41,070 nucleotides of DNA from Candidatus Vogelbacteria bacterium (GCA_016215335.1 JACRKE010000015.1:1-41070); one strand, 5' to 3'. Numbered from the stretch's first letter, positions 1 through 41,065 are shown. Program-made: numbers and translations. Notes: generated by a model from the sequence alone, not told the origin.

Positions 1-134
1 ATTTGTGTTAGTGTAAACCGATTCTCGTTTCTTTCGTGTGTTGTGTGTGATGTGACGATTCAAAAACTCAGACGGCTGAGAGATTTTAGTGATGGCCGCA
101 AAACCGACGGAAAATTAGTTTCGTAATTCACAGC
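1..134. repeat. Left arm of a perfect terminal inverted repeat (partner 40932-41065)
   Basis: Bases 1-134 are the exact reverse complement of 40932-41065, compared base by base. The repeat runs off the left window edge, so its true length is at least 134 bp. It contains the TG-rich tract gtgtgttgtgtgtgatgtg and the small hairpin ctcagacggctgag. Confidence 0.95.
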
Positions 135-8291: not shown

Positions 8292-8876
8292 CTACCCGTT
8301 ACCGCAACCTTTCTCGGAGTTCTGTCGTCGCTTCCTTCTGATTGCAAGAGCGAGAGCTGCGCGGAGGTCATACTGCGAAGTGATGTTCAGGCAGTCGAGA
8401 ATTGTTCCCGGATCCGCGCGCAGACTATTCGCAATTTCCTGCGGCTTGACTGCAATTGCCGCCTTGAGTGCATTACGCTCCTCGACAAGTGCGTCAATAG
8501 TTAACATCATGTTCGCAAGATCGAGCTCCTTTGCAGATGCAAGTCTCACCTTGTCCATGAAAATTTCCATGGCGTCGAATAGCGAGCTCGGTTTATCCTC
8601 GCTTGAGACACTCGATTGATACTGGACTACTGCGGCTCGAAGCATCTCCATGATCTTTCCGACTGCCTCGATATTGCCTTCAGAAGGCGATCCTGAGGCC
8701 TTCTCGGCAATCATACGCGCCCCTTTCGTGAGTGTGGTCAGGAGCGCGAACTCTGCACTTCTGAGCTGTCTAATGGGTGGTGCGACCCTGCCGTTCTTGT
8801 TAGCCTCATTCACTTCAGGACCTCCTTGGTCATTAGAATCCCAGGTACTCGGTAGTTTTAACTTCTGCATGTACAA
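8292..8876 (-). CDS. GC-rich hypothetical helical protein (island 1); likely real start GTG 8813 behind AAGGAGG
   Basis: 194-aa ORF. Composition switches from AT-rich to GC-rich near 8830. AAGGAGG (8821-8827) lies 7 nt before the GTG at 8811-8813. The C-terminus is RRKRRQNSEKGCGNG*. I recognise no family. Confidence 0.6.
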   Translation of the reverse strand: MYMQKLKLPSTWDSNDQGGPEVNEANKNGRVAPPIRQLRSAEFALLTTLTKGARMIAEKASGSPSEGNIEAVGKIMEMLRAAVVQYQSSVSSEDKPSSLFDAMEIFMDKVRLASAKELDLANMMLTIDALVEERNALKAAIAVKPQEIANSLRADPGTILDCLNITSQYDLRAALALAIRRKRRQNSEKGCGNG

Positions 8877-20895: not shown

Positions 20896-21948
20896 ATGGA
20901 ATTAATCCGAAAGTTCAGCCAGATAAACAAGAACGACGCACCTTTGGCCGGAGGCAAAGGCGCATCGCTAGGTGAAATGTCTCAAGCGGGTTTTCCTGTT
21001 CCTCCTGGCTTTGTCGTGATTGCAACTACTTTCGATAAATTCCTACGAGAAACTGACCTAGAACAAGAAATTGAAGCAATTCTCGATACGGTAAATCACG
21101 AAGAAGTACACACAGTGGAACACGCGTCAGAGAAAATTCAGGCGTTGATATCTTCCGCAAAAATGCCAGACAATATTGCCGAGACGATTATGAGCAGCTA
21201 CCAACTACTTAGTCGTCCAACGACTAAAGTCGTTGGACGACTACCCGAGGGTTCAACCCTAGGGTTGAACCCTCGGGGCGGAGAAGACTTCTTTGTTGCG
21301 GTTCGTTCAAGCGCAACCGCAGAAGACAGTGCGAGTGCAGCATGGGCTGGACAGCTCGATACTTATCTAAACACCACAGAGGGGACACTGCTCGTAAATG
21401 TGAAGAAATGTTGGGCGTCGCTTTTTACGCCACGCGCTATTTTTTATCGATTTGAAAAAGGCCTTCGCAAATCGAAAATTTCAGTTGCAGTTGTGATACA
21501 AAAAATGGTTGAGAGTGACGTGTCTGGAATAGCTTTCTCTGTTCACCCTGTAACCGAAGACCGAAATCAACTAATTATCGAAGCAGGTTTTGGTTTAGGT
21601 GAGGCAGTAGTCTCGGGTGAAATTACTCCGGACTCATACGTAGTCGAAAAGGAACCACTTCAAATTATTGATAAAAATGTTAGTGAGCAGGGAAGAGGGT
21701 TGTATCGGGGTCAGGAAGCAAGGCTTCTAAATGCATCTCGAAGCCTTGCTTCCAAAGGGCCCAACGAATGGCGCGATCTTGGTGAAAAAGGCAAAAATCA
21801 AAAACTCACTGACAACCAAATAATTGAACTTTCAGAAATGATTATTAAAATAGAAAATCATTATGGCTTCCCGTGTGACATTGAGTGGGCGTTAGAAGGT
21901 TTAACCTTCTATATTACTCAAAGCAGACCAATCACTACATTGGCCTAA
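20896..21948 (+). CDS. PEP-utilising enzyme, N-terminal ATP-grasp (PPDK_N) half
   Basis: 350 aa with GGKGASLGEM..GFPVPPGFV and VAVRSSATAEDS motifs. It carries an in-frame palindromic insert at 21210-21277. Confidence 0.85.
   Translation: MELIRKFSQINKNDAPLAGGKGASLGEMSQAGFPVPPGFVVIATTFDKFLRETDLEQEIEAILDTVNHEEVHTVEHASEKIQALISSAKMPDNIAETIMSSYQLLSRPTTKVVGRLPEGSTLGLNPRGGEDFFVAVRSSATAEDSASAAWAGQLDTYLNTTEGTLLVNVKKCWASLFTPRAIFYRFEKGLRKSKISVAVVIQKMVESDVSGIAFSVHPVTEDRNQLIIEAGFGLGEAVVSGEITPDSYVVEKEPLQIIDKNVSEQGRGLYRGQEARLLNASRSLASKGPNEWRDLGEKGKNQKLTDNQIIELSEMIIKIENHYGFPCDIEWALEGLTFYITQSRPITTLA
21210..21277. repeat. Two adjacent 34-bp perfect palindromes inside the coding sequence
   Basis: 21210-21243 is tagtcgtccaacgactaaagtcgttggacgacta. 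21244-21277 is cccgagggttcaaccctagggttgaaccctcggg. Together they translate in frame as ...SRPTTKVVGRLPEGSTLGLNPRG... Confidence 0.9.
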
Positions 21949-21970
21949 ATTAACGTACATAATTAAGAAC

Positions 21971-22000
21971 GGCCGGCTCCTGCGAGGGGGAGCCGGCCGG
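21971..22000 (-). terminator. GC-rich hairpin terminating the island-2 gene
   Basis: ggccggctcc-tgcgaggg-ggagccggcc, 15 nt past the TAA stop of ORF 22015-22623. Confidence 0.65.
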
Positions 22001-22014
22001 TTGCCGAGTGAACG

Positions 22015-22623
22015 TTACTTTAGAAGACCTTTCTTGGGGCCCATGCCGGGGCAGACCCGAGCTACAGGCTCCGCAGCGAGCCACTCGTTGCCTGCAGAAT
22101 CGAGCACGTGAATGAGGTCAATCACGTAGCCTGCACAAGACTTGAACCCTTCGGTCATGACCTTGACTGCCTCTGTGATCTGGCCACCGCGCCAGAAGAG
22201 GTTCGAAAGGAGAAGTGGCATGTTGGGCTCGTGCCCCACCACGATCTCGGGCTTCCGACTTGGAAGAGGCTCCTCCATGATGTCGGAGAGAGCCAGATCC
22301 ATCTCGGCCACGTACTTCTGACAGAGCTTGGCGTCGTGCTTCGTGTAGTCGAGAGGAACGCCCCTCGAGAACATGTCCCACATGCCGTCCATCTTGTCGC
22401 GATCGAGGCCGAAGGTGGGAAGATAGAATACCGGCAGGGCGATATTCGGCATTCTGCTAGGATTCGAAAGGGGCTCGTATGTAGCCACTCTCATTCCTGC
22501 TTCGAAAGTACGTTGGGCGTGCGAGCTAATCAGACGTCCAAAGTTGGGAAAGCCAAGCTCTTCGGCCAGAAGCTCACATTCGATCACGCCTTGAGTCGAC
22601 AGTACGCGTTTCAGGTCATCCAT
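22015..22623 (-). CDS. GC-rich histidine-phosphatase superfamily (SixA/PGAM-like) protein; reading frame continues upstream through TGA 22633-22635 to ATG 22716
   Basis: LSTQGVIECELLAEEL, ISSHAQRT and EIVVGHEPNM resemble SixA/His_Phos_1 blocks. The catalytic RHA motif (LWIRHAEAEP) lies in the same frame just upstream of an in-frame TGA. Confidence 0.6.
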   Translation of the reverse strand: MDDLKRVLSTQGVIECELLAEELGFPNFGRLISSHAQRTFEAGMRVATYEPLSNPSRMPNIALPVFYLPTFGLDRDKMDGMWDMFSRGVPLDYTKHDAKLCQKYVAEMDLALSDIMEEPLPSRKPEIVVGHEPNMPLLLSNLFWRGGQITEAVKVMTEGFKSCAGYVIDLIHVLDSAGNEWLAAEPVARVCPGMGPKKGLLK

Positions 22624-22805
22624 GCCCTCCTTTCACGGCTCGGCCTCCGCATGCCGTATCCAGAGTTGCCGGCGCTTCTTCCACCTGAAGCGAAAGACCC
22701 GCATGTCTCTTTTCATTCTAGGATCCTTTCAGCCTTGGTCACTGTCCTACAGTAAAGTTAAGGTCACTGAAAACCAAATTTTATATTAACATAATATATG
22801 TGTGC

Positions 22806-22834
22806 TTGTCAAATAAAGCTTAAGGTATTATAAT
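22806..22834 (+). promoter_or_regulatory. Near-consensus sigma70 promoter, leaderless geometry
   Basis: TTGTCA (22806-22811), 17 nt, TATAAT (22829-22834). The ATG at 22844 is 9 nt downstream and there is no SD. Confidence 0.6.
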
Positions 22835-22843
22835 GCTAATTAT

Positions 22844-23887
22844 ATGGCCAAAAGAGTATTTAATGAGACACAGGAGTATCGTAAGTGGGAGACAATTCCA
22901 CTCGGCATTTTTGATGTAGAAGAGTGGTACGCAGGTGAGGCAGTTTCTCTATTTAATCTTACTAAAGGCGAATGTTACGGCCGTCCACTTTTCATATACG
23001 AGCCAGGTCTTGGTGTAAGTATTTGGTACAACTGGTCAGATACTAATCAGTGGGGTTCGGTAAAATGGAAGAAATATTTGCAAAAACACATGGGATTTTT
23101 CAACAGAGAGGAGATAGAATATAGAAAAGCTTGCGCTCAGATTATGGAGACAGTTAGAATTCCTAAATTTCCAACTGATTTTATAAAACTCCACAAATTA
23201 ACCTTAAGGATGTGGCCGATGCTGGCGTTTTCAAATACTTCAGGGAATCAGGTAGAAATTGATAAATCAGATCTTACCAGACGAGCTTACGAAATTCGCG
23301 CATCTACAGATAGGGTTTCCTACGCAGCCTCAGAAGCAATGCACCACATGGCTGCAGAAGCTCTGCCCGAAAAATACAAACAGCACAAAGATTTTTTAAC
23401 CTACAAAGAAATTGTTTCAGGGAAAATACCATCGATGGAAGAAGTGGAAAAAAGAAAAAGAGGCTACGTTTATTTCGAGGGTAAACTTCATGTGATAGGT
23501 CTTGTCGAAACCGGTGAGCTTTTCTCGTACAACAATGTTGTATTATTGGAAGATAAAGTGTTTCCAAAAAAAGAGTTTACCGGTAGTGTGGCATATAAGG
23601 GCAAGGTAAAAGGTATTGTACAGAAGTTGCAAGACATGAATGATTTCAAAAAGGATTTTACGGGGAAGATTTTGGTCGCATCAATGACAACACCGGATTA
23701 TTTAGCACAGATGAAGCAATCAGCGGCATTTATAACTGATGAAGGTGGCATTACTTGCCACGCAGCTATCGTTGCTCGCGAACTCAAAAAACCCTGTATA
23801 ATTGGTACAAAAATCGCAACAAAGGTTTTGAAGGATGGAGATCTTGTAGAGGTGGACGCAGATAGGGGGATAGTAAGAAAGTTGTAA
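22844..23887 (+). CDS. PEP-utilising enzyme, C-terminal half with phosphohistidine swivel (mobile) domain
   Basis: 347 aa with the C-terminal segment ITDEGGITCHAAIVARELKKPCIIG, the PEP-utiliser mobile-domain His motif. Confidence 0.85.
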   Translation: MAKRVFNETQEYRKWETIPLGIFDVEEWYAGEAVSLFNLTKGECYGRPLFIYEPGLGVSIWYNWSDTNQWGSVKWKKYLQKHMGFFNREEIEYRKACAQIMETVRIPKFPTDFIKLHKLTLRMWPMLAFSNTSGNQVEIDKSDLTRRAYEIRASTDRVSYAASEAMHHMAAEALPEKYKQHKDFLTYKEIVSGKIPSMEEVEKRKRGYVYFEGKLHVIGLVETGELFSYNNVVLLEDKVFPKKEFTGSVAYKGKVKGIVQKLQDMNDFKKDFTGKILVASMTTPDYLAQMKQSAAFITDEGGITCHAAIVARELKKPCIIGTKIATKVLKDGDLVEVDADRGIVRKL

Positions 23888-32195: not shown

Positions 32196-33251
32196 TTAAA
32201 CCTTTCCTATAAGAGCGATCGCAAGTCCAGCAACAGCAGATATAATGCTTACAATCCAAAAACGCATAACGACTTTCGTGGCAGGCCAGCCAAGCGCTTC
32301 GAAATGATGATGTATAGGTGCAACTAAGAAAACTTTTTTACCCAGAACTTTTTTTGATCCGATTTGGATTATTACTGATGCTGACTCGATCAAGAGTGGA
32401 AACGCAATAAGAATTAAAATTGGCACATTGTCCGTGAGAAAGGCAACCACGGCTAACGTTACGGTGAGACCTAGTGTTCCGGTTTCTGTAAGATAAAATC
32501 TAGCGGGTGGAATATTATACCAAAGAAACGCCAAGAGTCCGCCTACTACGACCGCACAAAAAGCTGCAATATCATACTGCTGTTGTATAAAAGCTATAAC
32601 TGCATAAGAAGCATACATTACTGAAAAAACCCCGCCCGATAATCCATCTAATCCGTCTATCACACCTCCAGAAAAAAGTGCGAGCATTACAATTACGAAT
32701 AGTGGAATAAACAGCCAGCCTAGTGCAACAGATCCTACAAATGGAATTGTTATCGCCGAAACACCTAACTTTACATAGAACCACCAAGCTCCTATGAGAC
32801 CGATTACTATTACTGATCCAATTCGTTTTGAAAGTGATAATCCTCCAGCAACGTAGCCTCCTTTCTCCTGTGTCTGAAGCAGGTCGTCAACCATTCCCAC
32901 GAAAGATGCTGCAAGCATGCTAAAAAGCAGTAGCCAGGTTTGATTTCTGCTTAGGAAAGAGAGCTTCGAAGTGACAAAACTGGGATAGAATGCAAACATC
33001 AGCCAGAAAATTAAAGTGGTTACAAATACACTCCCCCACACTATTACTCCACCCATTCTCGGCGTCCCAATCTCTTTATCCTTATGCAGTTCGTTGAATA
33101 TTGGAGTGCCACCACCTCCAAGCGCCTGTGTTCGAGCTTTCTTCTTCCACATCTTATTCTTGTACAAATAGTCGGTCAGCGGAGGGGTAATTGCCATTCC
33201 TACAAGAAACGAAATAAGAAGCGGCAGAAAAATTTTAGCTACATTTATCAT
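32196..33251 (-). CDS. mraY: Phospho-MurNAc-pentapeptide translocase MraY (longest ORF from TTG 33305)
   Basis: GTPRMGGVI, DGLDGLSGG and PIHHHFE motifs, about 10 TM helices. Confidence 0.92.
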   Translation of the reverse strand: MINVAKIFLPLLISFLVGMAITPPLTDYLYKNKMWKKKARTQALGGGGTPIFNELHKDKEIGTPRMGGVIVWGSVFVTTLIFWLMFAFYPSFVTSKLSFLSRNQTWLLLFSMLAASFVGMVDDLLQTQEKGGYVAGGLSLSKRIGSVIVIGLIGAWWFYVKLGVSAITIPFVGSVALGWLFIPLFVIVMLALFSGGVIDGLDGLSGGVFSVMYASYAVIAFIQQQYDIAAFCAVVVGGLLAFLWYNIPPARFYLTETGTLGLTVTLAVVAFLTDNVPILILIAFPLLIESASVIIQIGSKKVLGKKVFLVAPIHHHFEALGWPATKVVMRFWIVSIISAVAGLAIALIGKV

Positions 33252-33289
33252 TAAGAATGAAGAATACTCCTTACTTATAATTTGATCAA

Positions 33290-33365
33290 GCGACCTAGAA
33301 AACAAGGAGTGTAATCACGACTGTGTTTTCGGAAGTGCCCTTGTGGTGCGACCTAGAAAACAAGG
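33290..33365. repeat. 58-bp unit plus an 18-bp partial tandem duplication in the mraY leader
   Basis: gcgacctagaaaacaagg occurs at 33290-33307 and again at 33348-33365. The two copies bracket copy 1 of the 46-bp repeat (33304-33349). Confidence 0.9.
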
Positions 33366-33439: not shown

Positions 33440-33485
33440 AAGGAGTGTAATCACGACTGTGTTTTCGGAAGTGCCCTTGTGGTGC
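33440..33485. repeat. Second identical copy of the 46-bp repeat
   Basis: aaggagtgtaatcacgactgtgttttcggaagtgcccttgtggtgc is identical to 33304-33349. The two copies are separated by a strong hairpin, ccttttgagctcgta/tacgagccaaaagg, at about 33397-33425. Confidence 0.9.
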
Positions 33486-33489
33486 AGCC

Positions 33490-34431
33490 TCAGTCATTCA
33501 GTATGTTTGATGCAAAGTAATCTGACGTTGCATTTACTAGTTTTTGTATGTCATTGAATCTACCTGATTCCGTCGACCCCATTACAACTGCCACCATGGG
33601 ATGATTGATCCCTGCGTCGAACACAATAGCTAAATTTCCACCAGCCAGATCTGTCAAACCGGTTTTAGACACTAATAAAAGTGGAATTTTTTTCGCTACT
33701 CTGTTTGTGTTCATGACTTGTATGACCTTACCCTCAATGCTACTAAATTTAGCTTTTGACCTTTGAGTTACAATAAATTCCTCATTGTACGAATTTGCTG
33801 CATACCAGATCATCTTTGCAACATCTTCTGATGATCCTTCAGCTCCAGGGATACTCTCGGAAACATCCAGTCCGGTAGGATTTCTGAAATGTAAGGTTTT
33901 TAGGTTAAGTTCCTTTGCCTTAGCGTTCATAATATCAACAAAGTTATTTTTGTTTTTGTTTAGGTTATTGTCTTCTTCACCTAGTGGCATTCTCGCTATG
34001 GCGGCTGCCGCGGAGTTTGAGGATGACATTAGCATCCGCTCTATAAAGGAGCTCAGTTTCCATGTTGATTTGCTACCATTCTCTGTAAACTTTATTACGT
34101 TGTCCGTTTCATGATTCTCCATGGCGACCACGGCTGTCATTATTTTCGCAAGAGATGCGAGTGGCATTATTTTGTCTGATGATTTACTGAATATGATTTT
34201 TCCGCTTTCTGTATCGTATACTACGGCAACCTCAGCCTCTATTTTTGGCATATGTGCAATCTTTTTCTTTTCCACTTTGGGTAACGCGAAAAAATTATTT
34301 GGATTTTGTTCGAAATAACCTTCAATAGTCCCAGACAGCATGAGAAAAAGTGCTATCAAAACTGCAGATGATATGAGTGGTGCAATTGAATTTACTCCGC
34401 TTTTGCTATTCATTTTTACCGGTTGTTCCAT
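33490..34431 (-). CDS. D-alanyl-D-alanine carboxypeptidase (S11 family, low-MW PBP)
   Basis: 313 aa with a signal anchor, SxxK (SLAKIMT), SxN (SSN) and KTG (SKTGLTD). TGA stop. Confidence 0.85.
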   Translation of the reverse strand: MEQPVKMNSKSGVNSIAPLISSAVLIALFLMLSGTIEGYFEQNPNNFFALPKVEKKKIAHMPKIEAEVAVVYDTESGKIIFSKSSDKIMPLASLAKIMTAVVAMENHETDNVIKFTENGSKSTWKLSSFIERMLMSSSNSAAAAIARMPLGEEDNNLNKNKNNFVDIMNAKAKELNLKTLHFRNPTGLDVSESIPGAEGSSEDVAKMIWYAANSYNEEFIVTQRSKAKFSSIEGKVIQVMNTNRVAKKIPLLLVSKTGLTDLAGGNLAIVFDAGINHPMVAVVMGSTESGRFNDIQKLVNATSDYFASNILND

Positions 34432-38300: not shown

Positions 38301-38342
38301 TAAAGTAAGGTTCGACCTTGCGTAAGGTCGAACCTTACTTTA
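38301..38342. repeat. REP-like hairpin, left flank of the Y1 transposase gene
   Basis: taaagtaaggttcgacctt-gcgt-aaggtcgaaccttacttta. The stem core gtaaggttcgacctt is identical to that of the hairpin at 39046-39085. Confidence 0.9.
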
Positions 38343-38370
38343 CGACTTGATTTGCTGTATACTTAAAAAT

Positions 38371-39034
38371 ATGAACAGAGTCCCCATTGAATTAGACACG
38401 TTCCACCATATTTACAACCGAGGAACCGATAAAAGACTTATTTTCATGGACGATAAAGACCGTGAGCTTTTTTCTCAAATATCTGCATATTTTGAATGAT
38501 GCAGATATTGAAAGTCCCAGTAGAAATTTATCACTGCATCTACGGCCTCAAACTGTCAGTAAAAGACTTACGAATATTTGCGCGTTTTGCATGATGCCAA
38601 ACCACTTTCACCTTTTATTGTACGAGTGTACACCCGGCGGGATTAGCAAGTTGCTACAACGGCTGGGAACTGCATTTACAATGTATTTCAACGAAAAATA
38701 TGAAAGAAGCGGGGCTTTATTTCAGGGAGGTTTCAAAAGCCGTCTTATCGAAGACGAGGTTTACCTGATGCAAGTAATCGACTACATTCATCTAAATCCA
38801 ATTCAACACAAGGAAATGGATGGTTCTAAGAAAGGTTTATTTAAAAGCGATCTACAATTTCTTGATGACTATCCGTGGTCAAGTTATAAAGATTATTGCG
38901 GAGAAGAGACCTACTCAAATATTCTGCAACGAGATGTGCTGAACGAATATTTGGAAATGCCAAAAGATTACAAAGCATGGCTTCAAGGGCAACACGACTT
39001 CGAGGACATTCGCTCATTAGCAATTGATATGTAA
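38371..39034 (+). pseudogene. IS200/IS605-family Y1 (HUH) transposase, RAYT-like, interrupted by a frameshift in a T6 run (38468-38473)
   Basis: Frame 1 gives MNRVPIELDTFHHIYNRGTDKRLIFMDDKDRE (HUH motif) and stops at 38497. Frame 2 (ORF 38462-39034) continues with FLKYLHILND...MMPNHFHLLL...FQGGFKS...YIHLNP (catalytic Tyr). Confidence 0.85.
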
Positions 39035-39045
39035 CTCATGTCCGA

Positions 39046-39085
39046 CCAGTAAGGTTCGACCTTACGAAAGGTCGAACCTTACTGG
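39046..39085. repeat. REP-like hairpin, right flank of the Y1 transposase gene
   Basis: ccagtaaggttcgacctt-acga-aaggtcgaaccttactgg. The loop is nearly the reverse complement of the left-flank loop, so the two copies are inverted. Confidence 0.9.
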
Positions 39086-39260: not shown

Positions 39261-39701
39261 CTAGTCGTTGCCACACAGGTCGGCGGAAACTTTTCGCCGC
39301 CTCTCGGCCTCCTTTCTCGCGTCAACGAGCTTCGTGAAGCGTTGGAGTATGTGTCTCCGCACGCTTACCAGTATCGCCTCTCGACCCGCCTCGGGTAGTG
39401 CCGCGAGGCCGATGCCCGAGAGAAGGATTCTCCTAACCTCGAGCAAAACTGCCTCTGTTCTACTTGGCTGAACCCTAGCGATAGGGTCACGCACGCAAAT
39501 GATGTTTTCGACCATCGCAATTGTGAGGTGCTTAACGTCATCGTGCAGTAACGCCTCGACTGCCTCATTCGAGACTTGCGTTAGCTGACCCATGGCTTCA
39601 TCCGCCGCAATCAGGGCTTTCATACTCCTGCGCATGTCAATCTCGCGCAGGTCATTGAAGCTGGCAAACGCCACCAAAAAGTTTTCCGCTAGTCTATCCA
39701 T
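39261..39701 (-). CDS. GC-rich hypothetical helical protein with a polybasic-CGND C-terminus (island 3, gene 4)
   Basis: 146 aa. AGGAGG lies 7 nt upstream of the ATG. TAG stop. The tail is RKEAERRRKVSADLCGND*. Confidence 0.65.
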   Translation of the reverse strand: MDRLAENFLVAFASFNDLREIDMRRSMKALIAADEAMGQLTQVSNEAVEALLHDDVKHLTIAMVENIICVRDPIARVQPSRTEAVLLEVRRILLSGIGLAALPEAGREAILVSVRRHILQRFTKLVDARKEAERRRKVSADLCGND

Positions 39702-39714
39702 CTCGTGACCTCCT

Positions 39715-40074
39715 TTACTTGGTTGTCGCTTTGGCTGGAGCGATTGCTTCGAGTAGATGCTCCACGAACTTCGGGTCGCCGCTGGTGGTGACGCTCAATC
39801 GTCCTTGCGCAACATCTGAAATATTGTAGATGTTGGCGAAGTGGACGGGCGTCAACCCGATAACGCTTCTGCCCTTGTTGCGGTTGGCCATCAGGTGTGG
39901 CTCATCATTCCAGATTACGAGCGCTCCAAGCTCGATCTGCTCAAGCGTCTTCGCGTTCGCCGTCACTCGTTCCGATGATAGCCGTTCGCGTTCGTTGGGA
40001 CGCGAATCTATGGAGGTTATGAAATACATCCAGCCTGCCATCATGGCCGCCAGCGCAACGAAGCTGGCAATCAT
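39715..40074 (-). CDS. GC-rich hypothetical TM-anchored protein (island 3, gene 3); SD-preceded ATG at 40101 is in frame but separated by TGA 40084-40086
   Basis: 119 aa with an N-terminal TM (IASFVALAAMMAGWMYFI). There is no SD before the ATG at 40074. AAAGGAG-5 nt-ATG at 40099-40101 gives MRNIM-TGA-TCFMIAS... in the same frame. Confidence 0.6.
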   Translation of the reverse strand: MIASFVALAAMMAGWMYFITSIDSRPNERERLSSERVTANAKTLEQIELGALVIWNDEPHLMANRNKGRSVIGLTPVHFANIYNISDVAQGRLSVTTSGDPKFVEHLLEAIAPAKATTK

Positions 40075-40382: not shown

Positions 40383-40916
40383 CTATTCATGGTCGTTGTA
40401 ATCATTTTCGGCATCAAGATACGCAAGGGCCTCTGTTGCGAACCGCCTACACTCTAGGCGGAGCATGAGACCGAGCACGATCGCTGGCAGGCCAATCGTG
40501 CGCGCGAGGAAAATCAGCGCGAGACCGTCATCGGCCGCCACTGCCTTCGGCACTGCAAGTATATTTCCAAGCAGTACCACAACCCACGAAAGCATCGGCT
40601 CGGTGTTCTCCTCTGCTTGGAAAGCGAGGTGAATTATGAGTCGAACGTAGCCAAGAGTCATAGCGATCTGACACACGACGTATGTCGAGACCGCAAGAGC
40701 AGTTACGCGCCACCAGATAAAAGTTCCGCCTACCAGCGCGTAGCAAGCCCAGTCGAGCCAGTCGTGTTCGAGCTTGGCTCGCCGATGATTGCGTATCACC
40801 GCGGCACACATTACAAGAGAGAACGGCGCGGCAAGGTTGCCGCTCAAGTTCGCAGTGACACTCGCGCCCGGGTTGTGTCGCCAGTAGGCAAAAAAACTGA
40901 TCCAGAGCGCGAGCAC
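40383..40916 (-). CDS. GC-rich hypothetical polytopic membrane protein, about 6 TM (island 3, gene 1), possibly 5'-truncated at the inverted repeat
   Basis: 177 aa from a GTG start with no SD. The open hydrophobic frame continues upstream (KISFVIHSFWIIAV) across the repeat boundary at 40932. Confidence 0.55.
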   Translation of the reverse strand: MLALWISFFAYWRHNPGASVTANLSGNLAAPFSLVMCAAVIRNHRRAKLEHDWLDWACYALVGGTFIWWRVTALAVSTYVVCQIAMTLGYVRLIIHLAFQAEENTEPMLSWVVVLLGNILAVPKAVAADDGLALIFLARTIGLPAIVLGLMLRLECRRFATEALAYLDAENDYNDHE

Positions 40917-40931
40917 AGCGATGATCCAGAA

Positions 40932-41065
40932 GCTGTGAATTACGAAACTAATTTTCCGTCGGTTTTGCGGCCATCACTAAAATCTCTCAGCCGTCTGAGT
41001 TTTTGAATCGTCACATCACACACAACACACGAAAGAAACGAGAATCGGTTTACACTAACACAAAT
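40932..41065. repeat. Right arm of the perfect terminal inverted repeat (partner 1-134)
   Basis: It is the exact reverse complement of 1-134. Five further bases (41066-41070) have no counterpart only because the window starts there. Confidence 0.95.

What the first reader, a model, noticed from the sequence alone, without database searches (positions are those of the whole stretch)
22015..22716. In-frame TGA sits at the conserved Trp position of the RHGxTxW motif in a GC-rich histidine-phosphatase gene
The called ORF (22015-22623) has SixA/His_Phos_1-like blocks (LSTQG...ELLAEEL, SSHAQRT, VVGHEPNM) but lacks the catalytic RHG motif. Reading the same frame upstream gives ATG(22716) MKRDMRVFRFRWKKRRQLWIRHAEAEP-TGA-KEGMDDLKRVLSTQG. 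The missing catalytic segment is therefore present, separated only by one TGA at 22633-22635. In this superfamily the N-terminal signature is RHG[EQ]T.W, so the TGA falls where Trp is expected. Either this is a fresh nonsense pseudogene, or TGA is decoded as Trp or Gly in whatever expresses this gene. The host itself uses TGA as a genuine stop in mreC, rsmH, ftsI, murF and the S11 peptidase gene.
Basis: partly seen in the sequence, partly recalled or inferred. Interest (0 to 1): 0.75.

Follow-up and report, generated by a model that had tools for sequence, protein, structure and literature searches.

The report
Stop-broken foreign SixA-like phosphatase gene
A GC-rich, very divergent histidine-phosphatase gene in a candidate-phyla-radiation (CPR, Patescibacteria) bacterium is cut by one TGA just after its catalytic Arg-His; this is most likely a young nonsense pseudogene rather than a recoded Trp codon, so it is a fairly ordinary finding.

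Summary
The sequence facts hold. Minus-strand ORF 22015-22623 continues upstream in frame to ATG 22716, with a single TGA at 22635-22633. A second, independent assembly has the same TGA.

The gene has no detectable homologue among 1.84 billion representative proteins and falls below Pfam's cut-off. A SixA-family profile scores the read-through at 17.8 bits, against a best of 9.3 bits in 20,000 shuffles. The 202-aa ORF alone scores 7.0 bits. All four catalytic residues are present (R21, H22, R69, H162), and R21-H22 lie upstream of the TGA.

The "Trp position" claim is off by one. The near-invariant Trp column holds Pro27. The TGA sits in the next column, which is variable (D/K/G/E/S) and never Trp in 120 family members.

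The host uses TGA as a genuine stop in MreC, PBP2, RsmH, FtsI, MurF and the S11 peptidase.

The gene is a compositionally foreign cassette: 57% GC against 42%, a Shine-Dalgarno site in a host whose genes lack them, and its own promoter and terminator.

Best reading: a recently nonsense-disrupted foreign SixA-like gene. Rare read-through, or a donor that reads UGA as sense, cannot be excluded.

New side observation: related CPR genomes repeatedly carry a histidine-phosphatase gene abutting the same PPDK_N/PEP-utilizers genes.

The parts
22783..22812 (-). Sigma-70-like promoter for the phosphatase cassette (TTGACA, 18-nt spacer, TAATAT, with an extended -10 TG). It overlaps back-to-back with the + strand promoter of the next gene.
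   Evidence: 10 of 12 matches; 4 promoter-like sites found against 0.9 expected in shuffles
22724..22728 (-). Shine-Dalgarno-like AAGGA, 7 nt before ATG 22716. None of 31 host genes in the window has a well-placed SD.
   Evidence: sequence
22636..22716 (-). The 27 codons before the stop (MKRDMRVFRFRWKKRRQLWIRHAEAEP). They carry catalytic Arg21 (22656-22654), His22 (22653-22651) and Ala23. Third-position GC is 0.77, as in the downstream ORF.
22633..22635 (-). In-frame TGA (codon 28), in the context CCG-TGA-A. It aligns to the variable column one residue after the family's near-invariant Trp.
   Evidence: the same base is present in the second assembly
22626..22632 (-). AAGGAGG immediately after the TGA and 2 nt before ATG 22623. 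It could be a re-initiation site or simply the Lys-Glu-Gly codons occurring by chance.
22015..22623 (-). The 202-aa ORF forming the body of the SixA-like protein. It carries the second catalytic Arg69 (22512-22510, in SSHAQR) and catalytic His162 (22233-22231, in VVGHEPN). It lacks the RH nucleophile motif.
21970..21999 (-). Intrinsic terminator of the cassette: an 11-bp stem with 10 G-C pairs, followed by TTCTTAATTA.
20896..21948 (+). Flanking host gene encoding a PPDK_N (ATP-grasp) dikinase domain. It is convergent with the cassette.
   Evidence: 309.5 bits
22844..23887 (+). Flanking host gene with a variable N-terminal region and a PEP-utilizers swivel phosphohistidine domain. Its own promoter lies at 22806-22834. 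In relatives this module is fused to PPDK_N or follows it directly.

Best explanation
The 21960-22760 segment is a compositionally foreign, self-contained gene cassette (promoter, ribosome-binding site, ORF, terminator). It encodes a very divergent SixA-type member of the histidine phosphatase superfamily. Its original reading frame began at ATG 22716 and ran 233 codons. A single nonsense codon (TGA, codon 28) now cuts it six codons after the catalytic His22.

This host reads UGA as stop. Translation from ATG 22716 therefore ends after 27 residues. Any product made from the internal ATG 22623 lacks the Arg-His nucleophile motif and the first core beta-strand, so it should be catalytically dead.

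The gene is therefore a young pseudogene or split gene. The rest of the frame is still open and the GC content has not drifted toward the host's, which points to a recent event.

Shown: the frame, the stop, the host's stop usage, the composition, the signals and the motif alignment. Inferred: horizontal origin, recency and loss of activity.
For: Frame and stop:
- Searches show the frame and the stop.
- The same TGA is present in a second assembly.

Family assignment:
- SixA-family HMM: 17.8 bits for the read-through, against a maximum of 9.3 in 20,000 shuffles, 7.0 for the ORF alone and -1.8 for the antisense ORF.
- Among 2009 natural six-frame segments, only true His_Phos genes score higher.
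- hhalign gives two colinear matches, P = 0.007 each.
- The island keeps 15 family-invariant columns, including R21, H22, A23, D34, R37, L39, G43, R69, H162 and P164.
- Three curated models pick up the same N-terminal stretch weakly, and Pfam's does so only when the upstream codons are included: PF00300, NF045917 and TIGR00249.

Host code:
- TGA ends six complete conserved proteins, and no conserved gene is split by TGA.

Foreign cassette:
- 56-59% GC with third-position GC of 0.68-0.77, against a host at 42% and 0.37-0.40.
- An SD sits at ideal spacing although 0 of 31 host genes has one.
- The cassette has its own promoter and a GC-rich terminator.
- No relative of the cassette is found in any related locus.

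No recoding signal:
- The RNA fold around the site has z = -0.5.
- The family profile does not prefer Trp at the site.
Against: - No homologue exists, so the ancestral codon and the selection state of the frame cannot be measured.
- The 202-codon remainder is fully open and all expression signals are intact. That pattern is also what a still-used gene would show.
- A strong AAGGAGG plus ATG directly after the stop could support a deliberate two-ORF arrangement.
- The closest relative, L029, also has a GC-rich divergent SixA-like ORF at the equivalent locus. The 'recent transfer' may therefore be older, or recurrent.
- The family assignment is below curated thresholds. The only confident structure model used a forced family alignment and is circular.
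- tRNA-UCA and prfB elsewhere in the genome could not be examined.
Confidence: 0.6

Rival explanations
1. The UGA is decoded at some level, giving a full-length active phosphatase. Two routes are possible. One is near-cognate read-through by tRNA-Trp at a weak Pro-UGA-A termination context. The other is that the cassette comes from a lineage where UGA is a sense codon: Trp in the Patescibacteriota family JAKLIH01, or Gly in JAEDAM01 (Gracilibacteria and Absconditabacteria).
For: - The frame on both sides of the TGA is in exact family register.
- The promoter, SD and terminator are intact.
- The family's near-invariant Trp is missing at +6, and the TGA is the very next codon.
- Gly occurs in the TGA column in 13 of 120 family members.
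- UGA-to-Trp and UGA-to-Gly reassignments are documented within Patescibacteriota (PMC13092985).
- From my own knowledge, not tested here: a C-terminal Pro slows termination at UGA.
Against: - The host terminates six conserved genes on TGA, and none is interrupted by TGA.
- Aligning the TGA with the Trp column requires two indels within five residues. Trp at the site also lowers the profile score (16.6 against 17.8 bits).
- There is no structure or SECIS-like element at the site.
- There is no tRNA-UCA in the window.
- Known UGA-recoded lineages are not documented here as 57% GC.
- There is only one TGA in 233 codons.
Confidence: 0.12
2. The present arrangement is functional as two ORFs. A 27-codon upstream ORF ends at the TGA and is translationally coupled, through AAGGAGG and ATG 22623, to a 202-aa non-catalytic (pseudo-phosphatase or binding) protein.
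For: - AAGGAGG lies between the TGA and the ATG.
- The 202-codon frame is fully open. About 7 stops would be expected in random sequence of this composition (my calculation from the base composition).
- Gene callers accept it as a 202-aa ORF (Logan) or a 145-aa ORF (NCBI).
Against: - The SD-to-ATG spacing is only 2 nt, and host genes do not use SD at all.
- The product would lack the catalytic His and the first beta-strand of the core.
- Met32 sits in a family column that is Leu in 111 of 120 members, so it looks like an ordinary internal residue.
- No homologue starts at that position, because no homologues exist.
Confidence: 0.12
3. The resemblance to histidine phosphatases is chance. The ORF is an unrelated orphan, or a spurious ORF in GC-rich DNA, and the upstream RHA has no meaning.
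For: - All curated models are below threshold.
- No PDB sequence hit was found.
- The single-sequence AlphaFold model is uninformative, with pLDDT 33.8.
- There are no homologues.
- A 215-aa antisense ORF also exists.
Against: - 0 of 20,000 shuffles reach the observed profile score.
- In natural six-frame segments only true His_Phos genes score higher.
- Four catalytic residues and 15 invariant columns occur in the right order and spacing.
- The antisense ORF scores -1.8 bits and has no Pfam hit.
- The codon-position GC pattern fits the minus frame.
- Relatives carry bona fide His_Phos_1 genes at the same locus.
Confidence: 0.08
4. The TGA is a sequencing or assembly error, or a minority allele.
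For: This is a metagenome-assembled contig. Raw reads were not available to me.
Against: A second assembly, made by a different pipeline from run SRR12113407, is identical over 11.4 kb including this codon.
Confidence: 0.04

Closest known systems
SixA-family phosphohistidine phosphatases (Pfam PF00300 His_Phos_1, branch 1; TIGR00249). Solved examples matched here: 2rfl, 4hbz, 3f2i.
   Same: - The motif order and spacing match: hydrophobic strand, RHA, D..R.L..G, SS.A.R, VVGH.P.
- The size of the core matches.
- The alignment-guided model matches SixA structures, with TM-score up to 0.69 normalised to the target (this is circular).
   Different: - Only 18-28% identity in a forced alignment.
- Below all curated cut-offs.
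- Lys after RHA is replaced by Glu, the near-invariant Trp by Pro, and RPL by RVL.
- Two insertions are present, of about 37 aa and about 10 aa.
- The frame is broken by TGA.
- No detectable homologue in 1.84 billion representative proteins.
His_Phos_1 genes that abut the PPDK_N/PEP-utilizers genes in related CPR genomes (L003=L019, L032, L006), and the GC-rich SixA-like ORF of L029
   Same: - Same neighbourhood and same opposite-strand orientation relative to the dikinase genes.
- The L029 ORF is likewise GC-rich (52.5% against 42%), below the Pfam threshold, and has its own promoter and terminator.
   Different: - No pairwise similarity to the island: BLASTP E = 18 against L029; phmmer E = 0.3 against L003.
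- Those genes are intact.
- The L003, L032 and L006 genes have host-like GC and clear PF00300 scores of 77-131 bits.
UGA sense-codon reassignment in Patescibacteriota: code 25 (UGA=Gly) in JAEDAM01, and UGA=Trp in family JAKLIH01 (PMC13092985)
   Same: - Same phylum.
- An in-frame UGA inside a gene with otherwise preserved family register.
   Different: - Here UGA is a working stop in six conserved genes.
- Only this one foreign gene carries an internal UGA.
- The UGA is not at a conserved Trp or Gly column.

Membership tests
His_Phos_1 / SixA (PF00300, TIGR00249) | Score at or above the curated family threshold | tested here: not met
   PF00300 scores 12.3 bits against a 21.7-bit cut-off, for the read-through only; the 202-aa ORF alone gives no hit. 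TIGR00249 scores 11.6 bits against 74.5, and NF045917 scores 13.3 bits against 350. A custom SixA HMM gives 17.8 bits, with P about 1e-7.
His_Phos_1 / SixA (PF00300, TIGR00249) | N-terminal catalytic Arg-His (RH[GA]) following a hydrophobic strand | tested here: met
   LWI-R21-H22-A23 aligns to the profile's RHA. It is present only upstream of the TGA, so it is not part of the called ORF.
His_Phos_1 / SixA (PF00300, TIGR00249) | Second catalytic Arg (S-x-A-x-R) and C-terminal catalytic His (G-H-x-P) | tested here: met
   R69 in SSHAQR and H162 in VVGHEPN align to family-invariant columns.
His_Phos_1 / SixA (PF00300, TIGR00249) | Near-invariant Trp six residues after the catalytic Arg (RHAKSSW / RHGETxW) | tested here: not met
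   The column holds Pro27. Trp is found there in 112 of 120 family members. The TGA occupies the following, variable column.
His_Phos_1 / SixA (PF00300, TIGR00249) | Uninterrupted reading frame encoding the whole domain | tested here: not met
   There is a single TGA at codon 28, confirmed in a second assembly.
His_Phos_1 / SixA (PF00300, TIGR00249) | Alpha/beta histidine-phosphatase fold | tested here: inconclusive
   The single-sequence AlphaFold model has pLDDT 33.8. With a forced SixA alignment the model has pLDDT 71 and pTM 0.70, and it matches SixA, PGAM5 and TIGAR structures. That result is circular.
His_Phos_1 / SixA (PF00300, TIGR00249) | Phosphohistidine or phosphomonoester phosphatase activity | not testable with these tools
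   This needs expression and an enzyme assay.
UGA sense-codon reassignment (genetic codes 4 and 25) | In-frame UGA at conserved Trp or Gly columns across many host genes, with UGA not used as a stop | tested here: not met
   About 36 conserved ORFs in the window are intact under code 11. Six end on TGA with complete Pfam profiles; for RsmH the profile ends at the last residue.
UGA sense-codon reassignment (genetic codes 4 and 25) | tRNA with anticodon UCA (or an altered tRNA-Trp) and loss of RF2 | not testable with these tools
   The window holds only tRNA-Glu(CTC). The rest of the genome is not available.
Bacterial selenoprotein gene | SECIS hairpin just downstream of the UGA, with the UGA at a Cys/Sec column | tested here: not met
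   The fold of 22560-22785 has z = -0.5, with no distinctive hairpin after the UGA. The column is D/K/G/E/S in the family.

The most novel reading that the evidence does not exclude
The UGA is read through, or was natively a sense codon, and the cassette makes a working, fast-evolving phosphohistidine phosphatase. That enzyme would act as the antagonist of the adjacent PPDK_N / swivel-phosphohistidine dikinase. Under this reading the recurrent dikinase plus histidine-phosphatase gene pairing seen in several CPR genomes is a previously undescribed kinase/phosphatase module, and the leaky stop sets its dosage.
Probability: 0.08. Interest if true: 0.6.

Novelty: new member of a known kind. Interest (0 to 1): 0.3.

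Why it matters
On its own, one premature stop in a foreign orphan gene of a metagenome-assembled genome matters little. It mainly warns annotators that the public 145-aa and 202-aa calls are fragments of a broken SixA-like gene, and that an in-frame TGA next to a motif is not evidence of recoding.

Two things give it modest value.

1. It is a clean example of a compositionally foreign cassette in a CPR genome. The cassette carries its own Shine-Dalgarno site, promoter and terminator, and the host's genes apparently do not use SD at all.

2. Histidine-phosphatase genes abut the PPDK_N/PEP-utilizers dikinase genes, on the opposite strand, in four of about 28 distinct related loci as well as in this window. 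The dikinase works through a phosphohistidine intermediate. This suggests a functional kinase/phosphatase pairing that could be tested biochemically.

Tried and rejected
- **Homologue searches for the island protein.** The word-indexed search of 5.8 billion proteins and the full HMMER scan of 1.84 billion representatives found only the protein itself. One further hit was a spurious repetitive 854-aa protein.
- **Other sequence and family libraries.** The PDB sequence search, PHROGs and PADLOC gave nothing. So did the plasmid DNA search, the phage and plasmid tblastn searches and the IMG/VR viral contigs.
- **Structure.** Single-sequence AlphaFold was useless, with pLDDT 33.8.
- **Mobile-element hypothesis.** I looked for target-site duplications or terminal inverted repeats at the island borders. 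Only short, chance-level repeats turned up.
- **Paralogy.** The window's GC-rich orphan ORFs are not related to one another.
- **Recoding or SECIS structure at the TGA.** None was found.
- **Antisense ORF.** The 215-aa + strand ORF (22108-22755) as the real gene was rejected on three grounds: the codon-position GC pattern, no Pfam hit, and -1.8 bits against the SixA HMM.
- **Orthology with L029.** No pairwise similarity with the GC-rich ORF of L029.
- **NCBI record.** Looking up the record through the 145-aa product found nothing on record.
- **Literature.** Nothing was found on a CPR dikinase/phosphatase pairing.

Full report
**1. The observation**

On the minus strand there is an ORF at 22015-22623 (202 aa, ATG start, TAA stop). 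Translating the same frame upstream gives MKRDMRVFRFRWKKRRQLWIRHAEAEP-TGA-KEGMDDLKRVLSTQG. The ATG is at 22716-22714 and the only stop is TGA at 22635-22633. The quoted blocks (LSTQG...ELLAEEL, SSHAQRT, VVGHEPNM) are all present.

The segment from about 21960 to 22760 is 54-59% GC, and the window averages about 42%. Codon-position GC fits a GC-rich coding frame on the minus strand:
- the 202-aa ORF: 0.62 / 0.39 / 0.68;
- the 31 upstream codons: 0.55 / 0.45 / 0.77;
- host genes: third-position GC of 0.37-0.40.

The same 202-aa product is encoded on a Logan contig assembled independently from run SRR12113407. That contig is 100% identical to the window over 11,376 bp, including the TGA. An assembly or consensus error is therefore unlikely.

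**2. The host and its genetic code**

The window carries core bacterial genes: MreB, MreC, PBP2, GreA, LysS/AsnS-type and CysS tRNA synthetases, MraZ, RsmH, FtsI, MurF, RecR, DnaB, CorA, an S41 peptidase, and ribosomal proteins L9 and L27. The nearest relatives of its PPDK_N protein are CPR/Patescibacteria MAGs (Uhrbacteria, Zambryskiibacteria, Taylorbacteria) at 57-70% identity.

Of 40 ORFs, 22 end in TAA, 12 in TAG and 6 in TGA. The six TGA-terminated genes are MreC, PBP2, RsmH, FtsI, MurF and an S11 peptidase. Their Pfam profiles are complete at the C-terminus. For RsmH the profile ends on the last residue, and several genes have a second stop 1-3 codons later. No conserved gene is split by a TGA. 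The only tRNA in the window is tRNA-Glu(CTC).

**3. Is it a histidine phosphatase?**

By standard criteria it is not demonstrably one.
- Pfam reports nothing for the 202-aa ORF. For the read-through it reports His_Phos_1 at E = 0.13 and 12.3 bits, below the 21.7-bit cut-off.
- NCBIfam gives PspA at E = 0.048 and SixA at E = 0.19.
- The PDB sequence search, PHROGs and PADLOC give nothing.
- The protein is an orphan. The word-indexed search of 5.8 billion proteins and a full HMMER scan of 1.84 billion cluster representatives found only itself.
- Single-sequence AlphaFold failed, with pLDDT 33.8.

To test the motif resemblance properly I collected 120 real SixA-family proteins. All carry PF00300 as a precomputed domain, and many are named phosphohistidine phosphatase. 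I aligned 40 of them and obtained these results:
- hhalign gave two colinear local matches: residues 16-74 at P = 0.007, and the GHEP region at P = 0.0076.
- An HMM built from that alignment scores the read-through at 17.8 bits (HMMER P about 1e-7). The best of 20,000 shuffles scores 9.3 bits. The 202-aa ORF alone scores 7.0 bits, and only six of the 20,000 shuffles score higher. The antisense ORF scores -1.8 bits.
- Among 2009 natural six-frame segments from the window and 35 related loci, only real His_Phos genes and the similar L029 ORF described in section 6 score higher than the island's post-TGA segment (8.1 bits).
- In a MAFFT alignment the island keeps 15 family-invariant columns in order: R21, H22, A23, D34, R37, L39, G43, S65, A67, R69, Y135, H162, P164, W212 and P227.
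- An AlphaFold model guided by that alignment (pLDDT 71, pTM 0.70) matches SixA, PGAM5 and TIGAR structures. I discount this result because the alignment imposes the fold.

Conclusion: this is a genuine but extremely divergent SixA-like member of the histidine phosphatase superfamily. Its catalytic Arg-His lies upstream of the TGA.

**4. Which column does the TGA occupy?**

All three aligners place the N-terminus without gaps:

    family  L Y L V R H A K S S W d D P x L x D F D R P L N x R G
    island  Q L W I R H A E A E P * K E G M D D L K R V L S T Q G

- Counting from the Arg, Trp is at +6, and it is Trp in 112 of 120 members. The island has Pro27 there.
- The TGA is at +7. That column is D (46), K (34), G (13), E (12), S (9), N, A or H, and never Trp.
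- Substituting residues at the TGA gives these profile scores: D 19.8, K 19.3, S 18.4, R 18.1, G or X 17.8, C 16.7, W 16.6 and L 16.5 bits. Trp is among the least favoured of the one-step ancestors.
- On mutational grounds, CGA (Arg), TGG (Trp), GGA (Gly) and TCA (Ser) are all possible ancestors of TGA. The alignment cannot choose among them.
- A Trp reading would need two compensating indels within five residues. That is not impossible in a loop, but nothing supports it.

**5. The cassette and its signals**

The island is a complete transcription unit on the minus strand:
- a promoter at 22812-22783 (TTGACA, 18-nt spacer, TAATAT, with an upstream TG);
- AAGGA 7 nt before ATG 22716;
- the ORF;
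- an 11-bp GC-rich hairpin terminator at 21999-21970.

None of 31 host genes in the window has a well-placed Shine-Dalgarno motif. The SD at ATG 22716 therefore looks like a donor feature, and it marks that ATG as the original start. Together with the GC content, the GC-rich terminator and the lack of any relative of the cassette in related loci, this points to foreign origin. No target-site duplications or terminal repeats were found.

Directly after the TGA lies AAGGAGG, followed 2 nt later by ATG 22623. This could permit re-initiation. However, the spacing is short, the host does not use SD, and Met32 occupies a column that is Leu in 111 of 120 family members. I regard it as probably incidental. 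RNA folding around the site is unremarkable, with z = -0.5.

**6. Genomic context: an unexpected regularity**

The island lies between a PPDK_N gene (20896-21948) and a gene ending in a PEP-utilizers swivel domain (22844-23887). In relatives these two parts are fused into one ORF of 750-1840 aa, or are adjacent on the same strand, often with 2-4 tandem swivel modules.

Scanning those loci with the SixA HMM showed histidine-phosphatase genes directly abutting the dikinase genes on the opposite strand in several relatives:
- **L003 (identical to L019):** PF00300 at 131 bits, 20 bp downstream of the fused ORF, convergent.
- **L006:** PF00300 at 76.8 bits, about 5 bp downstream, convergent.
- **L032:** PF00300 at 128.7 bits, immediately upstream, divergent.
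- **L029 (the closest relative, 70% PPDK_N identity):** a GC-rich (52.5% against 42%), Pfam-negative ORF carrying RH, SP.VRT and VGHAP motifs. It has its own promoter and terminator and scores 12.3 bits on the SixA HMM.

That is four of about 28 distinct loci, plus the window. No His_Phos-like ORF was found anywhere else in the flanks.

The island protein shows no significant pairwise similarity to any of these genes. The position of the phosphatase gene is therefore probably not accidental. PPDK_N/PEP-utilizers enzymes work through a phosphohistidine on the swivel domain (established knowledge of the family). A histidine phosphatase partner is thus a plausible antagonist, acting either on the phospho-enzyme or on its phosphorylated product. 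This is inference only.

**7. Explanation**

Most likely (confidence about 0.6): a foreign, rapidly diverged SixA-like gene that has recently acquired a nonsense codon six codons after the nucleophilic His.
- In a host that reads UGA as stop, the 27-residue N-terminal peptide and the 202-aa body cannot be joined.
- The body lacks Arg21, His22 and the first core strand, so it should be inactive.
- The remaining 202 codons contain no stop, although about 7 would be expected in random sequence of this composition. The signals are intact and the GC content has not shifted toward the host's. All of this argues that the lesion is young.

Rivals:
- low-level read-through, or a donor with a UGA-sense code, about 0.12. 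Such codes do exist in Patescibacteriota: UGA=Trp in family JAKLIH01 and UGA=Gly in JAEDAM01 (PMC13092985);
- a deliberate upstream-ORF plus truncated-protein arrangement, about 0.12;
- chance resemblance to the family, about 0.08;
- sequencing or assembly error, about 0.04.

**8. Verdict**

Its key argument for recoding, that the TGA sits at the conserved Trp, is not supported. The finding is a new, broken member of a known family. It has modest interest of its own. The recurrent pairing of dikinase and histidine-phosphatase genes in CPR genomes is a side observation that may deserve follow-up.

Noticed in passing
L003 9606-10220(-), L019 4401-5120(-), L006 8418-8981(-), L032 3329-3940(-), L029 2808-3572(-); window 22015-22716(-): Histidine-phosphatase (PF00300 or SixA-like) genes directly abut the PPDK_N/PEP-utilizers dikinase genes on the opposite strand. 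This is seen in four of about 28 distinct related CPR loci and in the window. No His_Phos-like ORF occurs elsewhere in the flanks. It may be a functional kinase/phosphatase pairing.
   Followed up: partly
window 1-134 and 40932-41065: The first 134 bases of the contig are the perfect reverse complement of bases 40932-41065, which gives the contig a 134-bp terminal inverted repeat. The contents are core chromosomal genes, so this is probably a repeat or an assembly-edge effect.
   Followed up: no
window 21210-21277 and 21714-21753 (inside PPDK_N gene 20896-21948): Perfect or near-perfect 34-40 bp palindromes lie in frame inside the PPDK_N gene. They add about 37 residues (..RLPEGSTLGLNPRGG..) that are absent from relatives of 311-315 aa. 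The independent Logan contig breaks exactly at this palindrome.
   Followed up: partly
window 8292-8876(-), 39261-39701(-), 39715-40074(-), 40383-40916(-): There are further GC-rich (52-56%) ORFs with no Pfam, PHROG or PADLOC match, and they are unrelated to each other. The 8292-8876 ORF has only one relative (72% identity) among 5.8 billion proteins. The last 2 kb of the contig is uniformly about 54% GC.
   Followed up: partly
window 38301-39085: An IS200-like Y1 transposase gene (38462-39034, PF01797) is flanked by two copies of a roughly 40-bp palindrome (38301-38342 and 39046-39085). It lies at the border of the GC-rich right end of the contig.
   Followed up: no
window, all gene starts (e.g. 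22806-22846): None of 31 host genes has a well-placed Shine-Dalgarno motif. The PEP-utilizers gene has a near-consensus promoter (TTGTCA, 17-nt spacer, TATAAT) that ends 9 nt before its ATG. This suggests leaderless or very short-leader mRNAs in this organism.
   Followed up: partly
L002, L003, L004, L005, L015, L018 (downstream of PPDK_N): Relatives carry 2-4 tandem modules, each a variable region plus a PEP-utilizers swivel domain, after a single PPDK_N domain. These are often fused into single ORFs of 750-1840 aa, which is an unusual multi-swivel dikinase architecture.
   Followed up: no
window 33304-33349 and 33440-33485: A perfect 46-bp direct repeat flanks the gap between the genes at 32196-33305 and 33490-34431.
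   Followed up: no
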